Origin: Octopus vulgaris
Lineage: Eukaryota
Assembly: GCA_951406725.2 (NCBI GenBank)
Contig: OX597842.1
Coordinates: 7,564,001-7,628,000, forward strand
Length of the DNA: 64,000 nt
Reading direction: 5' to 3'
This document shows, one piece after another, positions 57,019-64,000 of this stretch. The position numbers are program-made. Every line of letters starts with the position of its first letter. Position 1 is the stretch's first letter.

Positions 57019-60000
57019 ACCGTTGCTAGAAGGGGATTTGACTCGTGTTTGTATAAACAATGGTGGATTTCTCTGCTGTGAAAATTGTTAAGTTAAGGTC
57101 GAAAATTTATTTTAGCGCTATTTGCTGGTGCCTCAGGGGAAAATAATTTGACGAAAATATAGCTAGGATCATGACGAATGTCCTCCTAAAATTGGAGCAA
57201 CATGCTTGCTAATTTGTGGATGTGCATAAATTACATTCACGTACACACACACACGATGCCTTTTATATATATACGTTTATATAACCTAATGTTAAATACC
57301 ACAGCAATGTCATCATGATTGTTAAGTAGACATCTGACATGAATAGCTTCTTGTTATTTTGTGTTTTGGGAAATGGAGGAGAGAGTAAGTGACATCAGAA
57401 GACATAGGGACTGAAATTCTGAAAATAAAAGGAGTTAAAATAAGACCTAAAATATTATCAGTTCCTCCCATTGATGGGACTGAGACAACAAGTTTTCACT
57501 CTTTTTAAAAATTATTTTTCAGATTATGGACAGTCAGCTATTCATCTTCTTCTTCTTTGCCTTGTTTACAATTTTTTATGGTAAGTTTTCATTTGTTTTT
57601 GCTCTATTTTTTAGTGGGTAATCCTTCAGTATTGGCTGACCAGCTAGAACCTTAGTCAGAAGGAGAAATGAAGTTTACTGTCAGCAACTGTGAGACAACA
57701 TCCCACACCCTACAACTCCCACTTGCCTTTCAGACAAGATGACAAACAAGCAAAATGCTTGGGGCCTTGCTGTACTCAAGAGAGCTGTACTCCACAGCAG
57801 ATATGTTAAGGTCACTCCCCCGCTGAAGAAGATTGGCCTGCAAGATTTCTGTGCCATTGCCACATAAAAAGCACATGGCAGTGCCATGAACAGGCTCTCA
57901 TGTGGTGCCAAATAAAAGCACCCAGCATGCTAAATCCCACTGGAGCCTTGTGCAGCTCTCCATCTTGTCAACTCTGGTTAAACAGTCCAACTCATGTCTG
58001 CATGGAAAACGGATATTAAATGCGCCGATGACGACGACAATAATACTCAAAAATGTAAAATTTGAAAATATGTTTGTCTTCATCTCTTTTAGGCTCGCAA
58101 TGTGAAAGAGTCTACAAAATCATTCAAAAAGGTAAGAAACCTGTTTCTCATTTTAAACTGGACACTATCTTCTCAGTTCTCTCTTTTATTTCTTTCTCTT
58201 CCCTCAGTTTATAGTCATGTTTTTGTTTTTAAATTTAATCCTGAAATCTTTCATATGGGAAACTAGTCTGTAATATTGATATATATATATATATTTCAGG
58301 AAGTTTTGTACTTGGAGGAACCATGACTCTTCAAACTGAAGAAATACCCAGCATGGAGCGACCTGTTACCTGGAAAAATGAGAATAAAAGCTTTGAATGT
58401 GATAGAACATGTTATAAATCTGGCAGAGTAGAAGTTCAGCAGAGTGGTAATATATCCACTATTTTGATAAAATATATATCACAGGCAGATGTGGACTGGA
58501 TTTTCCGCGACAAGAAATATCGCTATGCAACGATTTCTTTGAAGGAAGAAGGTAAGGAAATGACTTCTGCTAATAATAACAACTAGCAGTATCGCCCGGC
58601 GTTGCTCGGGTTTGTAAGGGAAATAATTATATAAGCATTTTTAGAGATGTAAAGTATAATAGCCATCTCAATATGGCTAACCACAAAGGGGGGTGTTACT
58701 GTAGCTTTTTACGTTCTGAGATTTAATAATAAATTTTAGAGAGTTACTTCCCTTATATATGTCAAAAATGGATTAAAAATGGGAAAAATTGATGGTAAAT
58801 TTTTTTAAATCGTAGACTCATCGTAGACGCGCGCTAATACCCAGACGGTCTCGATATGAATCACGACTATAAGATACCCGGTTTTGGTTAAACTGCACCG
58901 CAAAATGTGGGAGTAGTTAGGAATCTAAATCGTAGGAGACAGACACACAACCTCACTTTTATATATAAAGATTTCCTCTATTTACATAATATTGAGGTCT
59001 CTTTCTTTCTTTTGTTATCTTACTGTTTTTACCAATATACATATATATATATATATAAATATATATATAGTTACAGAGATGTACTTGCATAGCAAGTGAC
59101 TTGATCTGAGATCGTGTGCTGGAACGAAAACAGTTGCAGCGTTGAAGGTGTTTATAAGCCATTTAAGAAACACACAAAAACCGTTAGATTCACTTCAACA
59201 TTTAAATTTAATTTGTCAAAATATTTTCATCGCTTTGAGACCGCGACCTGTTAGCACGATATTTTTGTCAGTGAACAGGTCGCGGTCTCAAAGCGACGAA
59301 AATATATATATACACACATATATATATATGTATGTATGTATGTATGTGTGTATATGTGTATGCATGTATGTGTGTGTGTGTGCGTGTCTGTGCTTGTGAT
59401 TGTCCTCCACCACTGCTTGACAACGAATGTTGGTTTGTTTACATCCCTGTCACCTAGTGGTTTGACAAAGGAAACAGATAGAATAAGTACAATGCTTACA
59501 AAAATAAAACGAGTTGATTCATTAAACTACAATTCTTCAAAGCATTGCCCCAGCATGGCCACAGACCAATGGCTGGAAAAAGCAGAAGAATAAATGAATA
59601 CATTCTCTGCTTTGGTCTTATGTTCAAGGCATGAGAAAGCTTGAGTTTACATGAGAAGGCCTAACAGACCTGGTAGAAACAGCAGCCAAATCTCCCTCAA
59701 ATCACACCTTACTGTCTTATCTATGTATATATGTATGTATGAGCCAATGAGGGGGACCTCTACATGGTAGCTAGACCTGGTAGAAATAGCAGCCAAATTT
59801 CCCCCAAATCACACCTTACTGTCTTATCTATGTATATATGTATGTATGAGCCTATGAGGGAGACCCCTACATGGCAGGTAGACCTGGTAGAAATAGCAGC
59901 CAAATTTCCCCCAAATCACACCTTACTGTCTTATCTATGTATATATGTATGTATGAGCCTATGAGGGAGACCCCTACATGGCAGCTAGACCTGGTAGAAA

Positions 60001-62313
60001 TAGCAGCCAAATCTCCCCCAAATCACACCTTACTGTCTTATCTATGTATATATGTATGTATGAGCCTATGAGGGAGACCCCTACATGGCAGCTAGACATG
60101 GTAGAAATAGCAGCCAAATCTCCCTCAAATCACACCTTACTGTCTTATCTTTCTGCTACTTGGATATAGGTGTTATATTCGTCGTAAAAAACTTTCCTGT
60201 CACACACTCACGCACACGCACACACACACACACACACACACGCACCCTCACACACACACACACACACGCGCACACCCACACACCCACTCACACACACGCA
60301 CGTTAGCTTACAATTTTATTTATATATTTGCGTGTCTATGTGTTGAAAGAGGAAGTGGGAGGCAGAGTGAAAGAATCACTCACTACAGTAAGTCAATTAC
60401 TTTCATTTTATTCGTTGCCCACTGTGTGTGTGCGTTTGCGTGTGCTGTAAACCAGACTAAGAAAAGCATTTGACACACACACCAGAATGTGAGTTTTCTG
60501 TAAATTTTGCTTAATTGGAGTTTAAATTTTAAAAACTGGACCTGGCATGACGCGATGCATTGTACTCTTAAAAATGCAAGGTAAATTGTAATTGAAGAAA
60601 TCCTATATTGTAGATTTGTATAACTCCCAAAGGGAGGCAGATAAAATCTGCCTTTTATAATAAGAGATAATAATTCTTTCTAATTCATGCACAAAGTCAT
60701 GCACAAACCACATGGTTCCAGGTTCAGTCCCACTGCATGGCACCTTGGGCAAGTGTCTTCTACTATAGCTTTGGGCTGACCACAGTCTTGTGAATGGATT
60801 TGGTGGATGGAAACTGAAAGAATCCCATCGTATATATGTATGTGTGTGTTTGTGTGTCTGTGTTTGTCCCCACAACATCGCTTGGCAACCGATGCTGGCG
60901 TGTTTATGTCCTCGTAACTTAGCGGTTCGGCAAAAGAGACTGATAGAATAAGTACTAGGCTTACAAAGAATAAGTCCTGGGGTCGATTTGTTCGACTAAA
61001 GGTGGTGCTCCAGCATGGCTGCAGTCAAATGACTGAAACAAGTAAAAGAATAGTGTTTAAACATAGAGCCTCAATGCCTTATGTCACTGTATTTAATGTA
61101 TATCTCTGTCTGCATGAGTTACCCACAGGTATAACTAAGAATCTGGTGTACAGGTAAGTGCTCAACAAGGCTCAGTCCTCAGCCCACTCCTTTTCGTTAT
61201 TGTCCACCTAAACATATTCTATATGACCCATTTAAATGGATATTAGAATGATGATGATGATGAAAATAGCAGATGTCTTAGTGTTCAAACATATAATCAC
61301 ATTTTCAATACCTTCTGTCACTATATAATGTACAAGAAAAACGCCCCCACACCGTCCAATGGATGGTGCTGAGTTGTCAAACATTTAAACCAAATTTTCT
61401 CAAGCCAACTTGTCCGACCGTCCCATAGGCCTTCCCTTTGAGAAACACTGATTTAACCTAAATTTGAGACACCAGCAAAAGAAGAAATAAAGATAGACTT
61501 TTTTTTCCTATTCCAAAGAAAAACGATTTTATTCACACAAATATGCAACCGAAGAGTTTAAAGTACCAGTAATGATAAGGCTGTTGACTGGGAGAACACA
61601 AACATGTGTGTAGATTTGTATGTACGTAAGCATGTGTGTGTGTGTGAGCTGGTATCTCTTGAGTTGTGATTTGTCTGTGTATGTGCGTTTAGGCGTACGT
61701 TTGCAAATGTGCGTGTGTGGATGTTTCTTAACAAACCAACCGTAAAGAAAGACAATTGTTATTTAAATTTAAATGTACAAGCCAATCATATTTTAGCGTT
61801 CGATTCTTAACTATTTCTGAACGTAATACTGTTTTTGTGTAACAGTTGAAATTATAAATTGCAGTCGTATGTACATTTGTACACCTGTGGAACTTAATAT
61901 CATGTAAACCATATGCTTTTATTTCTTATTTTGTATGTATATGCAGATATTTAATGCTTTGCATGGTACTGTAATACTATTGTTGTCCTTGGTTTTGCTA
62001 TTATATTGCTAATAATGTGATCTATATGTTGTTTTGCTAGTATTAGTGTTATTAATAATAAGAATAATGATATTGGTAGCATTAGTGGTAATGATAATGG
62101 TAATGATGTTAATATTGTTAACGTTAATGACATTTTGGAAATAAATATAAATTAATATAACGTACTCTTGTCTCTGTATATCTGCATTTGGGTATTAATA
62201 TGTGTATGTTTTCTACATTGTAATATCATAATATTAAGTTGAAAAACTGTAACATTGAATATGGAACATATGTATGTTTATTGATTTATATTATTTATAT
62301 TATTATGTATATC

Positions 62314-62371
<58 letters not shown>

Positions 62372-62974: not shown

Positions 62975-63011
<37 letters not shown>

Positions 63012-64000
63012 ATATGTTTGTGTGTCTGTGTTTGTCTCCTCCTAGCATTGCTTGACAACTGATGCTGGTGTGTTTACGTCCCCGTTAATTAGCGGTTTGG
63101 CAAAAGGGACCAATAGAATAAGTACTGGGCTTACAAAGAATAAGTCCCGGGGGTGATTTGCTCGACTAAATGCGGTGCTCCAGCATGGCCGCAGTCAAAT
63201 GACTGAAACAAGTAAAAGAGTAAAGAGTAATCAAAAATTTAAAATCTGAAAATATTTTTGTTTTCTATTTGAATAGGTTGGCAATGTAAAAAAGAGTACA
63301 AAATAGGTATTTTGAAAGGTAAGTGGAGTACCTTTTTCTCATCTTAAACTAGACACTATCTTTTCAGTTCTGTTTTTTTATTTTTTTCTCTTAACTCATA
63401 CAATTTTACTTGAAGTTCACCTACCATGACCGTCATTATTTAATGTCCTGGCTCTTTGTTATACAATCACCTGTGATATCACGAGAGGAAGTGTCTCAAA
63501 TCTTTATATAAAGAAAACTCTGATTCCAGATATGTAAAAGTAGGTGTTGAAACAATGATGATGATAAAAATGAATCCTGAAATCTTTCATATGGGAAACT
63601 AGTCAATAATAATGATTCATATATTTATTGCAGGAAACCCTGTGCTCGGACAAAGTATCTTTCTTGAGGTTAAAGATATGCCCTATATGGAAAGGCCTGT
63701 GGTCTGGAGAAATAGGGTCCGTAGTATCGAGTGCAATAAGGAATATTGCGATCGTGGCAAATATGCAGTTAGGCAGATTCATAGAACTTCTACTCTCTAC
63801 ATCGAGAATATAACGAGAGAGGATTTGTTTTGGAGATTCTATGACAAGAACTCCTGTAATGCAACGATTACTCTTGGGAAAGAAGGTAAGGAAATGGCTT
63901 CTGCTAATAATAACAATAATAATTCTTTCTGATTCATGCACAAGGTCATCAGTTTCTGGTTCCCTGATTACATCAATTTGAGTCTATTTGGCTGGTACTA

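What the first reader, a model, noticed from the sequence alone, without database searches (positions are those of the whole stretch)
57526..63885. Leader exon plus tandem, rapidly diverging Ig-like cassettes: candidate diversified receptor locus
Seen: one signal-peptide exon, then two cassettes each made of a micro-exon starting G-S/W-Q-C and a 252-nt exon, all phase 1. The domains align without gaps at 33/84 aa identity (hand count), while flanking intron blocks are almost identical: 32/32 nt (58237-58268 vs 63573-63604), 33/36 nt after the micro-exons and 34/35 nt across the donors. I found no second leader exon between them. GxQC resembles the end of a signal peptide, so each cassette looks like an N-terminus. 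Inference: diversifying selection on a recognition protein, with cassettes either strung in series or used as mutually exclusive variable modules from one leader. The array may continue past the window.
Basis: partly seen in the sequence, partly recalled or inferred. Interest (0 to 1): 0.8.

Follow-up and report, generated by a model that had tools for sequence, protein, structure and literature searches.

The report
Octopus two-domain Ig-like membrane gene
This is the front end of an octopus gene for a cell-surface protein with two antibody-like domains strung in series; it belongs to an uncharacterised octopus-only family, and its coding exons have diverged far more than the introns around them.

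Summary
A leader exon (57526-57580) is followed by two cassettes, each a micro-exon (39 or 42 nt) plus a 252-nt exon. All are phase 1 with AG/GT sites. The domains share 32 of 83 residues. Alignable intron is 83% identical against 58% for the domain exon (Fisher p=1e-10).

The domains are Ig-like. A model of the 94%-identical Octopus sinensis ortholog (LOC115225395, 260 aa; pLDDT 84) shows two nine-strand beta sandwiches, and its best PDB fold matches are titin, scFv and NCAM2 Ig tandems. No Pfam Ig model passes, and the canonical disulfide is absent.

The ortholog joins both cassettes in series and ends in a stalk and a transmembrane helix, which lie beyond the window. Each micro-exon encodes strand A of its domain, not a signal-peptide end. 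I found no docking/selector pairing, no second leader and no membrane exon between the cassettes.

Diversifying selection is not shown: pairwise dN/dS is 0.33-0.77 with dS 0.8-1.55. The intron/exon contrast is real, but its cause is open: accelerated exons, intron homogenisation or intron constraint. All 10 named relatives are uncharacterised Octopus proteins, with one to four such domains.

The parts
57526..57580 (+). Leader exon (coding part): hydrophobic signal peptide, MDSQLFIFFFFALFTIFY plus the first base of a Gly codon. An AG lies 3 nt before the ATG, so a 5'UTR exon may sit upstream.
   Evidence: 17 of 18 residues match the N-terminus of O. sinensis LOC115225395 (P0001). Helix 3-18 in the model.
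58044..58092 (+). Intron stretch upstream of micro-exon 1, homologous to 63228-63276 (36 of 48 identical). Bounded upstream by a transposable-element tail.
58093..58131 (+). Micro-exon 1, 39 nt, phase 1/1: (G)SQCERVYKIIQK. Encodes the linker and strand A of Ig-like domain 1.
   Evidence: Ortholog residues 20-31. Strand 28-31.
58132..58299 (+). 168-nt intron between micro-exon 1 and domain exon 1. It aligns along almost its whole length with the cassette 2 intron (64 of 75, 15 of 25 and 57 of 66 identical) and contains the 32/32 block 58237-58268.
   Evidence: No stable RNA fold (z=-0.03). No Rfam match.
58300..58551 (+). Domain exon 1, 252 nt, phase 1/1: strands B-G of Ig-like domain 1. N-glycosylation sequons NKS and NIS.
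   Evidence: 77 of 83 identical to P0001 residues 33-115. Fold.
58552..58582 (+). Conserved donor-flank intron of cassette 1.
58583..60656 (.). About 2.1 kb of inserted repeats that interrupt the cassette 1 downstream intron: an unclassified repeat, a hairpin element, microsatellites and a 107-nt tandem repeat of 4.5 copies at 59666-60150.
60657..60700 (+). Resumption of the cassette 1 downstream intron, 91% identical to 63907-63949. It is followed by a SINE that lacks the usual head.
   Evidence: Usual SINE heads for comparison.
63228..63276 (+). Intron stretch upstream of micro-exon 2, homologous to 58044-58092. It directly follows a SINE copy (about 63000-63229).
63277..63318 (+). Micro-exon 2, 42 nt, phase 1/1: (G)WQCKKEYKIGILK. 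Encodes the linker and strand A of Ig-like domain 2.
   Evidence: 100% match to P0001 residues 116-130. Strand 125-130.
63319..63633 (+). 315-nt intron of cassette 2. It is homologous to 58132-58299 and holds an extra segment of about 168 nt (63399-63566).
   Evidence: No stable fold (z=+2.07).
63634..63885 (+). Domain exon 2, 252 nt, phase 1/1: strands B-G of Ig-like domain 2. N-glycosylation sequons NIT and NAT.
   Evidence: 79 of 83 identical to P0001 residues 131-213.
63886..63949 (+). Conserved intron downstream of domain exon 2. Read through in frame it gives GKEMASANNNNNNSF*, the same tail that ends three truncated database models of other cassettes.

Best explanation
The region is the 5' part of a single protein-coding gene of an Octopus species. 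The gene is the ortholog or a very close paralog of O. sinensis LOC115225395.

It encodes a type I membrane glycoprotein: a signal peptide, two Ig-like domains in series, then a short stalk, one transmembrane helix and almost no cytoplasmic tail. The stalk, helix and tail are encoded beyond position 64000.

Each domain is split over two phase-1 exons. A micro-exon gives the linker and strand A. A 252-nt exon gives strands B to G. The two-exon cassette was duplicated in tandem inside the gene, and the exons are spliced in series.

The gene belongs to a clustered family seen only in Octopus. Members carry one to four such domains, and cassette duplication is still going on in some of them.

Shown here: the exon structure, the homology of the cassettes, the Ig-like fold, the serial architecture of the ortholog and relatives, and the excess divergence of exons over introns.

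Inferred: the protein acts at the cell surface in recognition or adhesion. Its ectodomain evolves fast, either under positive selection or weak constraint. The adjacent intron sequence is kept similar by splicing constraint on weak, micro-exon-containing cassettes, by gene conversion, or by both.
For: - Splice sites, phases and reading frames are intact.
- A profile of the two domains finds 31 proteins at E<=1e-3 among 1.84 billion representatives. The best is P0001 at E=1.6e-90.
- P0001 is O. sinensis LOC115225395. It reads leader, micro 1, domain 1, micro 2, domain 2, stalk, transmembrane helix. It matches the window at 17 of 18, 11 of 12, 77 of 83, 13 of 13 and 79 of 83 residues, 197 of 209 in all.
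- The AlphaFold2 model of P0001 with a 23-row family alignment has mean pLDDT 83.9. It shows two sandwiches of nine strands and a helix at 230-259.
- Foldseek against the PDB gives at least 500 matches at E<=1e-3. The top ones are titin I9-I11, scFv pairs and NCAM2.
- Relatives P0002 and P0003 reach 23.6 and 21.7 bits on I-set, against a cut-off of 23.7. The distant hits P0026 and P0029 are true I-set and V-set proteins.
- Atlas neighbours are mollusc 'hypothetical protein' clusters, followed by V-set and I-set clusters.
- In the domain tree the domain 1 group and the domain 2 group are sisters (SH-aLRT 86) inside a 16-row clade (96). P0005, P0002 and P0007 hold near-identical internal repeats.
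- Residues 217-260 of P0001 have no match in the window.
- All 10 hits that carry a name are Octopus proteins.
Against: - No transcript data could be consulted, so serial splicing rests on one RefSeq gene model and on the gene models of relatives. I could not see what evidence supports those models.
- All exons are phase 1/1, so skipping either cassette, or using them alternatively, would also stay in frame.
- No Pfam Ig model passes its threshold on the window's exons.
- The fold evidence comes from the ortholog, not from a spliced product of the window.
- The function is inferred from architecture only.
- The species of the window is not established. The O. vulgaris model P0032 is only 82% identical to domain 1 and 85% to the ortholog overall, so paralogy with P0001 cannot be excluded.
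Confidence: 0.75

Rival explanations
1. Diversified recognition receptor under positive selection. After a fairly recent cassette duplication the introns record the neutral divergence (about 0.15-0.19 per site). The exons have been driven apart several times faster. This would resemble the accelerated exon evolution with conserved introns reported for snake venom PLA2 and conotoxin genes (recalled, not from a call).
For: - Exon mismatch is 106 of 252 against 50 of 293 for intron (p=1.3e-10).
- dN of 0.51-0.64 is about 3 times the Jukes-Cantor intron distance of 0.15-0.19.
- Identity drops and recovers right at the exon borders (sliding windows).
- The introns tolerate indels and transposon insertions, so they are not wholly constrained.
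- Long branches lead to both domain groups in the tree.
- The family is lineage-restricted and multi-copy.
Against: - dN/dS between the cassettes is 0.33-0.77 by four methods, with dS 0.8-1.55. Synonymous sites are therefore also far more diverged than the introns, which positive selection alone does not explain.
- Among 29 degenerate codons for identical residues, 11 differ (binomial p=0.001 against the intron rate).
- The ortholog keeps each domain at 93-95% identity, so the divergence between domains 1 and 2 predates that species split.
- The B-C loop, which is CDR1 in antibodies, is the most conserved stretch (P-x-M-E-R-P-V).
- Identity is no lower outside strands (16 of 43) than in strands (16 of 40). 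This is my hand count.
Confidence: 0.2
2. Old duplication with intron similarity maintained secondarily. The two domains are ancient paralogs under ordinary purifying selection. The flanking intron sequence is similar for one of two reasons. Either it is functionally constrained, carrying splicing enhancers and branch sites needed to recognise a 39-42 nt micro-exon and AT-rich acceptors. Or it is homogenised by gene conversion that selection keeps out of the exons, as recalled for HLA class I introns.
For: - dS is near saturation and dN/dS is below 1.
- The domain 1 / domain 2 split predates the split from the O. bimaculoides models P0006 (like domain 1) and P0009 (like domain 2).
- The in-frame read-through tails GKEITSANNNNNNSF (P0004, P0006) and GKFMISANNNNNNSF (P0009) match the window's GKEMASANNNNNNSF. 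P0004 and P0006 are O. bimaculoides proteins. So the donor-side intron is conserved among cassettes whose proteins differ by about one substitution per site, and probably across species.
- Near-identical internal repeats in P0005, P0002 and P0007 show that homogenisation or recent duplication operates in the family.
Against: - Similarity covers essentially every intron base not occupied by transposons, out to about 98 nt past the donor. That is wide for splice signals alone.
- The conserved blocks show no RNA structure, no Rfam family and no pairing with the leader intron.
- Conversion tracts that stop exactly at four exon borders require selection on the exons anyway.
- I could not fetch any other Octopus locus to test this.
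Confidence: 0.45
3. Alternative or mutually exclusive use of the cassettes from one leader (Dscam-like), or regulated skipping that gives one-domain and two-domain isoforms.
For: - All exons are phase 1/1. The leader's split codon gives Gly with either micro-exon.
- Conserved intron flanks are a recalled hallmark of regulated cassette exons and micro-exons.
- Family members with one domain exist.
Against: - The ortholog model contains both cassettes.
- Each cassette encodes a whole domain, not an alternative version of part of one.
- RNA duplex energies between the leader intron and six conserved blocks are not better than shuffles: 22 to 75 of 100 shuffles did at least as well.
- There are only two cassettes, and no further copy of any conserved block in 64 kb.
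Confidence: 0.1
4. Cassette 2, or the whole locus, is a pseudogene or a separate gene.
For: - No transcript evidence was available.
- The locus is crowded with transposons.
Against: - All five exons keep open frames and consensus splice sites.
- Both domains are 93-95% conserved with the ortholog, without frameshifts or stops.
- No leader or promoter-proximal exon lies between the cassettes.
Confidence: 0.05

Closest known systems
O. sinensis LOC115225395 (P0001) and the other uncharacterised Octopus proteins of the same family: LOC115225372, O. bimaculoides A0A0L8I036, LOC106872842, LOC106871836, LOC106883582, LOC106869802, LOC106876468, and O. vulgaris hypothetical proteins P0032 and P0033
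   Same: - The same leader, micro-exon and domain sequences; 197 of 209 residues are identical to P0001.
- The same domain signature: P-N/x-M-K/E-R-P-V-x-W, E-C-x3-C and W-x-F-x-D.
- Type I membrane layout.
   Different: - The window holds only the 5' part.
- Relatives have one to four domains and different tails.
- None has a described function. A search for six of these identifiers found no paper.
Immunoglobulin superfamily I-set and V-set domains, such as titin Ig tandems, NCAM2 and CD2
   Same: - Two-sheet beta sandwich with nine strands.
- An invariant Trp in strand C.
- The strand F pattern D-x-x/G-x-W/Y-x-F/C.
- Phase-1 introns between domains.
- Tandem arrangement on a membrane anchor.
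   Different: - No Pfam Ig model passes its cut-off.
- The canonical B-F cysteine pair is replaced: Thr/Phe in domain 1 and Val/Phe in domain 2.
- The cysteines sit instead in strand A and the C'-C'' region.
- The domain is split by an intron after strand A.
Dscam-type arrays of mutually exclusive Ig exons (features recalled)
   Same: - Tandemly duplicated Ig-coding exons of equal length and phase, with conserved sequence in the flanking introns.
   Different: - Only two cassettes.
- Each encodes a whole domain.
- Both are present in the ortholog protein.
- No docking/selector pairing.
Molluscan FREPs of Biomphalaria (features recalled; only a search listing seen)
   Same: - Mollusc proteins with one or two N-terminal IgSF domains, in multigene families discussed as diversified recognition molecules.
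   Different: - No fibrinogen domain: the Pfam scan of P0001 shows none.
- Membrane-anchored instead of secreted.
- No sequence relationship was detected.
Gene families with introns more conserved than exons, such as snake venom PLA2, conotoxins and HLA class I (recalled, not from a call)
   Same: - The flanking introns (83% identical) are far more alike than the coding exon (58%). Both synonymous and non-synonymous sites are affected.
   Different: - Here the comparison is between two domains of one protein rather than between gene copies.
- dN/dS is below 1.

Membership tests
Immunoglobulin superfamily (Ig-like domain) | Greek-key beta sandwich of 7-9 strands | tested here: met
   AlphaFold2 model of the 94%-identical ortholog P0001: pLDDT 83.9, nine strands per domain. 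The top Foldseek PDB matches are all Ig tandems, with probability 1.00 and E about 1e-7; TM-scores are only 0.23-0.34 because two domains plus a helix were compared at once. The window's own exons were not joined. The exon-only model was weak (pLDDT 57.4).
Immunoglobulin superfamily (Ig-like domain) | Significant match to a curated Ig sequence model (Pfam I-set, V-set, ig) | tested here: not met
   0 Ig families for either window exon at E<=10. P0001 has none either. Relatives P0002 and P0003 reach 23.6 and 21.7 bits on I-set against a cut-off of 23.7. A PDB profile search gives only CD2 at E=0.39 and titin at E=0.71.
Immunoglobulin superfamily (Ig-like domain) | Conserved Trp in strand C packing the core | tested here: met
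   W24 of the domain is identical in both cassettes. It is the only invariant column of the 23-protein alignment (W56 of P0001).
Immunoglobulin superfamily (Ig-like domain) | Canonical disulfide between strands B and F | tested here: not met
   The strand B motif L-x-C reads L-Q-T in domain 1 and L-E-V in domain 2. The strand F motif Y-x-C reads W-I-F and W-R-F. Many true Ig domains lack this bond, so it lowers the claim but does not exclude it.
Type I single-pass membrane protein | N-terminal signal peptide and C-terminal transmembrane helix | tested here: inconclusive
   The hydrophobic leader is in the window. The transmembrane helix is seen only in the ortholog (residues 230-259) and is not in the window. 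No signal-peptide predictor was available.
Dscam-like mutually exclusive exon array | Exactly one variant exon per mRNA | tested here: not met
   This test is indirect. The O. sinensis model holds both cassettes in series, and relatives have up to four serial domains. No transcripts could be examined.
Dscam-like mutually exclusive exon array | Docking site complementary to a selector sequence before each variant | tested here: not met
   RNAduplex of the leader intron (57581-58043) against six conserved blocks: 22-75 of 100 mononucleotide shuffles did at least as well. The inverted repeats found are low-complexity only.
FREP (fibrinogen-related protein) | C-terminal fibrinogen domain | tested here: not met
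   The Pfam scan of P0001 shows no fibrinogen domain; the protein ends in a transmembrane helix.
Accelerated-evolution families (exons diverging faster than introns) | Exon divergence exceeds intron divergence | tested here: met
   106 of 252 mismatches in the exon against 50 of 293 in intron, p=1.3e-10.
Accelerated-evolution families (exons diverging faster than introns) | dN/dS at or above 1 | tested here: not met
   dN/dS: NG86 0.33, LWL85 0.63, YN00 0.77, ML 0.47, from one pair of 83 codons.

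The most novel reading that the evidence does not exclude
The window samples an Octopus-restricted, clustered family of Ig-like surface receptors. The family grows by birth and death of two-exon domain cassettes. Its ectodomain exons are driven apart, or kept apart against intron-wide gene conversion, by selection for diversity. 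That would make it a cephalopod counterpart of the fast-evolving recognition families KIR/LILR, CEACAM and FREP, serving immune, self/non-self or contact-chemosensory recognition. It might be further diversified by in-frame cassette skipping.
Probability: 0.15. Interest if true: 0.7.

Novelty: new member of a known kind. Interest (0 to 1): 0.4.

Why it matters
Cephalopods lack antibodies, and little is known about their cell-surface recognition molecules beyond protocadherins and a few innate receptors. This work shows that a set of 'uncharacterized' Octopus proteins forms one family of divergent Ig-like membrane proteins. It defines their exon-domain logic: a strand-A micro-exon plus a 252-nt exon, all in phase 1.

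That gives annotators a template. Several database models of this family are truncated by intron read-through or mis-framed, and the template shows where.

It also gives experimenters a concrete candidate family for recognition or adhesion. The strong intron-over-exon conservation is a testable signal of unusual evolutionary dynamics, but by itself it does not show an adaptive-like diversification system.

Tried and rejected
- Pfam on the two domain exons: no Ig hit, only a chance YafO_toxin match at E=0.017, below its cut-off.
- First structure model from the two exons alone: pLDDT 57.4, too weak to use.
- More cassettes or relics in the window: none.
- Docking/selector pairing: not above shuffles. 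The first script for this timed out.
- Known RNA families in 57400-64000: only sub-threshold miRNA and snoRNA matches, all in TA/TG microsatellites and none in the conserved blocks.
- Stable RNA structure of the two short introns: z=-0.03 and +2.07.
- Dating the duplication by a shared SINE. I first took the motif AATAATTCTTTC... after the donors for a SINE head. The usual SINE heads at about 23240 and 40790 differ, and the motif occurs only twice in the window. So it is ancestral intron, and the dating argument was dropped.
- NG86 dS of 1.55 looked inflated. Identical-residue codons give a lower figure: 4 of 13 fourfold sites differ, Jukes-Cantor 0.40.
- Literature: six family identifiers gave 0 papers. 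Three keyword searches gave nothing on this family in the listings. Passages of the SPLASH preprint and of PMC9068888 do not mention it.
- Supplementary tables were closed. Supplementary Table 4 of PMC9068888, on clade-specific families, could bear on novelty.
- The window's exons were never joined into one protein.

Full report
**What is in the sequence**

The region lies at the 3' end of a window otherwise filled with transposon remains and simple repeats. I read five exons on the + strand:
- Leader: 57526-57580, MDSQLFIFFFFALFTIFY plus one base.
- Micro-exon 1: 58093-58131, 39 nt.
- Domain exon 1: 58300-58551, 252 nt.
- Micro-exon 2: 63277-63318, 42 nt.
- Domain exon 2: 63634-63885, 252 nt.

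All have AG/GT boundaries and are phase 1 on both sides. The split codon is Gly at every junction.

The two domain exons align without gaps at 32 of 83 residues, or 33 of 84 with the split Gly. At the nucleotide level they share 146 of 252 positions. tblastn of the domains and of the full ortholog finds no third cassette, no second leader and no membrane exon in the 64 kb.

**How far the cassette homology reaches**

The homology runs from 49 nt before each micro-exon to the donor flank of the domain exon.
- The 168-nt intron of cassette 1 aligns almost end to end with the 315-nt intron of cassette 2, which carries an extra segment of about 168 nt.
- After domain exon 1 the homology is cut at 58583 by about 2.1 kb of inserted repeats. 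It resumes at 60657-60700, 91% identical to 63907-63949.
- I first mistook that resumed stretch for a SINE head. The usual SINE heads elsewhere in the window differ, so it is ancestral intron.

Over all alignable intron columns identity is 243 of 293 (83%). The micro-exon gives 29 of 39 and the domain exon 146 of 252 (58%). Intron against domain exon gives Fisher p=1.3e-10. Identity falls and recovers at the exon borders.

**What the protein is**

The window's exons were searched one by one and were not joined.

A profile of the two domain exons found 31 proteins at E<=1e-3 among 1.84 billion representatives. The best hit, P0001, is O. sinensis LOC115225395, 260 aa. It reads leader, micro-exon 1, domain 1, micro-exon 2, domain 2, a Ser/Thr-rich stalk, one hydrophobic helix and a five-residue tail. 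It matches the window at 197 of 209 residues. Its last 44 residues have no match in the window, so the gene runs past 64000.

All 10 hits that carry a name are 'uncharacterized' or 'hypothetical' proteins of O. sinensis, O. vulgaris or O. bimaculoides. Two pairs share a contig length, which suggests clustering. Family members have a signal peptide, one to four copies of the roughly 97-residue domain, and a transmembrane segment.

**Fold**

- Pfam gives no Ig hit on the window exons. Relatives reach 23.6 and 21.7 bits on I-set against a cut-off of 23.7. The weakest profile hits are true I-set and V-set proteins.
- AlphaFold2 on P0001 with a 23-row family alignment gave mean pLDDT 83.9. It shows two sandwiches of nine strands each and a C-terminal helix. 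The exon-only model had been poor (57.4).
- Foldseek against the PDB returned at least 500 matches at E<=1e-3. The leading ones are titin I9-I11, scFv pairs, titin A164-165 and A168-169, and NCAM2.
- The Atlas search and the PDB sequence search point the same way, weakly.
- The strand C Trp is invariant.
- The canonical B-F cysteines are absent. Cysteines sit in the micro-exon (Q-C) and in the motif E-C-x3-C.

So the domains are Ig-like by fold, but they form a divergent subfamily that curated sequence models miss.

**The micro-exons**

They encode residues 20-31 and 117-129 of the ortholog. These include strand A of each domain: 28-31 and 125-130. In relatives the same x-Y-K/E-I-x-Q stretch follows the signal peptide and also every inter-domain linker. 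G-x-Q-C is therefore a linker and strand-A motif. It does not mark a second N-terminus.

**Serial or alternative use**

- The ortholog model and the multi-domain relatives argue for serial splicing.
- Duplex energies between the leader intron and six conserved blocks are ordinary: 22-75 of 100 shuffles did as well.
- The inverted repeats found are low-complexity.
- No Rfam family matches the conserved blocks, and the short introns are not structured.
- Because every exon is phase 1/1, in-frame skipping remains possible. It could not be tested without transcripts.

**Selection**

Pairwise estimates for the 83 codons:

| Method | dN | dS |
|---|---|---|
| NG86 | 0.51 | 1.55 |
| LWL85 | 0.52 | 0.83 |
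| YN00 | 0.64 | 0.82 |
| ML | 0.63 | 1.35 |

- dN/dS is therefore 0.33-0.77 with dS near saturation.
- A more conservative view uses only codons for identical residues. There, 18 of 29 degenerate codons are identical and 9 of 13 fourfold sites are identical. That is still more divergence than the introns show (binomial p=0.001 and 0.09).
- So both synonymous and non-synonymous sites of the exon are more diverged than the introns (Jukes-Cantor 0.15-0.19). Classical positive selection is not demonstrated.
- The B-C loop is the best conserved part. Identity is about the same in strands (16 of 40) and outside them (16 of 43). This is my hand count.

**Age of the duplication**

I built a tree of 49 domain rows.
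- Rows: 47 came from 31 of the 34 stored proteins, plus the two window exons.
- Left out: P0026, P0027 and P0029, and one partial domain hit of P0032.
- Method: quick IQ-TREE with LG+G4 on 82 columns, SH-aLRT support only, midpoint root.

In this tree the domain 1 group and the domain 2 group are sisters (86), inside a clade of 16 rows (96). The O. bimaculoides models P0006 and P0009 branch at the base of the domain 1 and domain 2 groups respectively. So the duplication is internal to this subfamily but older than the splits among the sampled Octopus sequences. Other genes (P0005, P0002, P0007) hold near-identical internal repeats, so cassette duplication or homogenisation is ongoing in the family.

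**The intron puzzle**

Three truncated database models end in in-frame intron read-through: GKEITSANNNNNNSF (P0004 and P0006) and GKFMISANNNNNNSF (P0009). These nearly match the window's GKEMASANNNNNNSF after domain exon 2. The donor-side intron is thus conserved among cassettes whose proteins differ by about one substitution per site. Since P0004 and P0006 are O. bimaculoides proteins, it is probably conserved across species too.

I see three explanations and cannot separate them without other genomes:
- Intron constraint, meaning splice control of micro-exon cassettes.
- Gene conversion kept out of the exons by selection.
- Truly accelerated exon change.

I rate the first two together as more likely than the third. 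Both the second and the third would imply selection for exon diversity.

**Comparison and verdict**

This is a new member of a known kind: an IgSF type I membrane protein gene from a lineage-restricted, uncharacterised family. It works like other tandem Ig-domain surface proteins. It is not a Dscam-like array, and it is not a FREP, since the ortholog has no fibrinogen domain.

Searches for six family identifiers found no paper. Three keyword searches produced nothing on the family in their listings. Passages read in two papers do not mention it. Supplementary tables were closed.

The comparisons to snake venom PLA2, conotoxins, HLA introns, Dscam docking sites and micro-exon flanks are recalled knowledge, not results of calls.

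**Unchecked**

- Transcripts.
- Orthologous loci.
- The species of the window.
- Cluster membership (one search was unavailable).
- Everything beyond position 64000.

Noticed in passing
window 17764-18897 (-) and 47259-49331 (+): Long open frames with reverse-transcriptase domains: RVT_1 at E=1.4e-24 and 7.5e-14, the second also with zf-RVT. These are LINE-type retrotransposon remains. The second is flanked by long (TCTA/TCTG)-like repeats that read as open frames at 47219-47736 and 49701-50561.
   Followed up: partly
window 37055-38371 (+): Two adjacent open frames (140 and 282 aa) that look like a transposase remnant to the eye. Pfam gave no match at E<=1e-3, so they remain unclassified.
   Followed up: partly
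window 52377-55564 (+): A GC-rich block (GC 0.49-0.52, GC skew -0.4 to -0.5) with several overlapping long open frames. Two of them gave no Pfam match. Possibly a degraded retroelement.
   Followed up: partly
window 59666-60150: A 107-nt tandem repeat of 4.5 copies, 96% matching, inside the long intron between the cassettes.
   Followed up: no
window 59222-59300: A near-perfect hairpin: CATCGCTTTGAGACCGCGACCTGTT and its complement further on. It looks MITE-like, sits inside the repeat insertion after domain exon 1, and overlaps a sub-threshold mir-5014 match.
   Followed up: no
window about 59400-59560, 60701-61060, 63000-63229, 23100-23260 (-), 40790-40900 (+): Copies of a tRNA-like SINE that are 76-82% identical to each other. 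One abuts the 5' edge of cassette 2. Another, which lacks the usual head, follows the resumed intron of cassette 1.
   Followed up: partly
protein P0032 (O. vulgaris model), compared with window 58093-58131: The model begins with two copies of ...NVKESTKS[FL]KK. This is micro-exon 1 read in the wrong frame (frame 0). It then runs through a partial domain 1, a domain 2 and a stalk, followed by a complete second gene copy. It looks like a merge of two tandem paralogs and suggests that tandem copies may lie next to the window's gene.
   Followed up: partly
proteins P0004, P0006, P0009, P0024: These database gene models stop in intron read-through right after a domain exon, with tails such as GKEITSANNNNNNSF. 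The family is systematically mis-annotated where the phase-1 donor is missed.
   Followed up: partly
protein P0027: A 305-aa model fuses C2H2 zinc-finger repeats to one domain of this family. It is probably a chimeric gene prediction.
   Followed up: no
window 63950-64000: The last 50 nt after the conserved block contain TGGTTCC and loosely resemble the SINE B-box region at 60714. If this is an old SINE shared by both cassettes, it would give a neutral yardstick for the age of the duplication. The stretch is too short to decide.
   Followed up: partly
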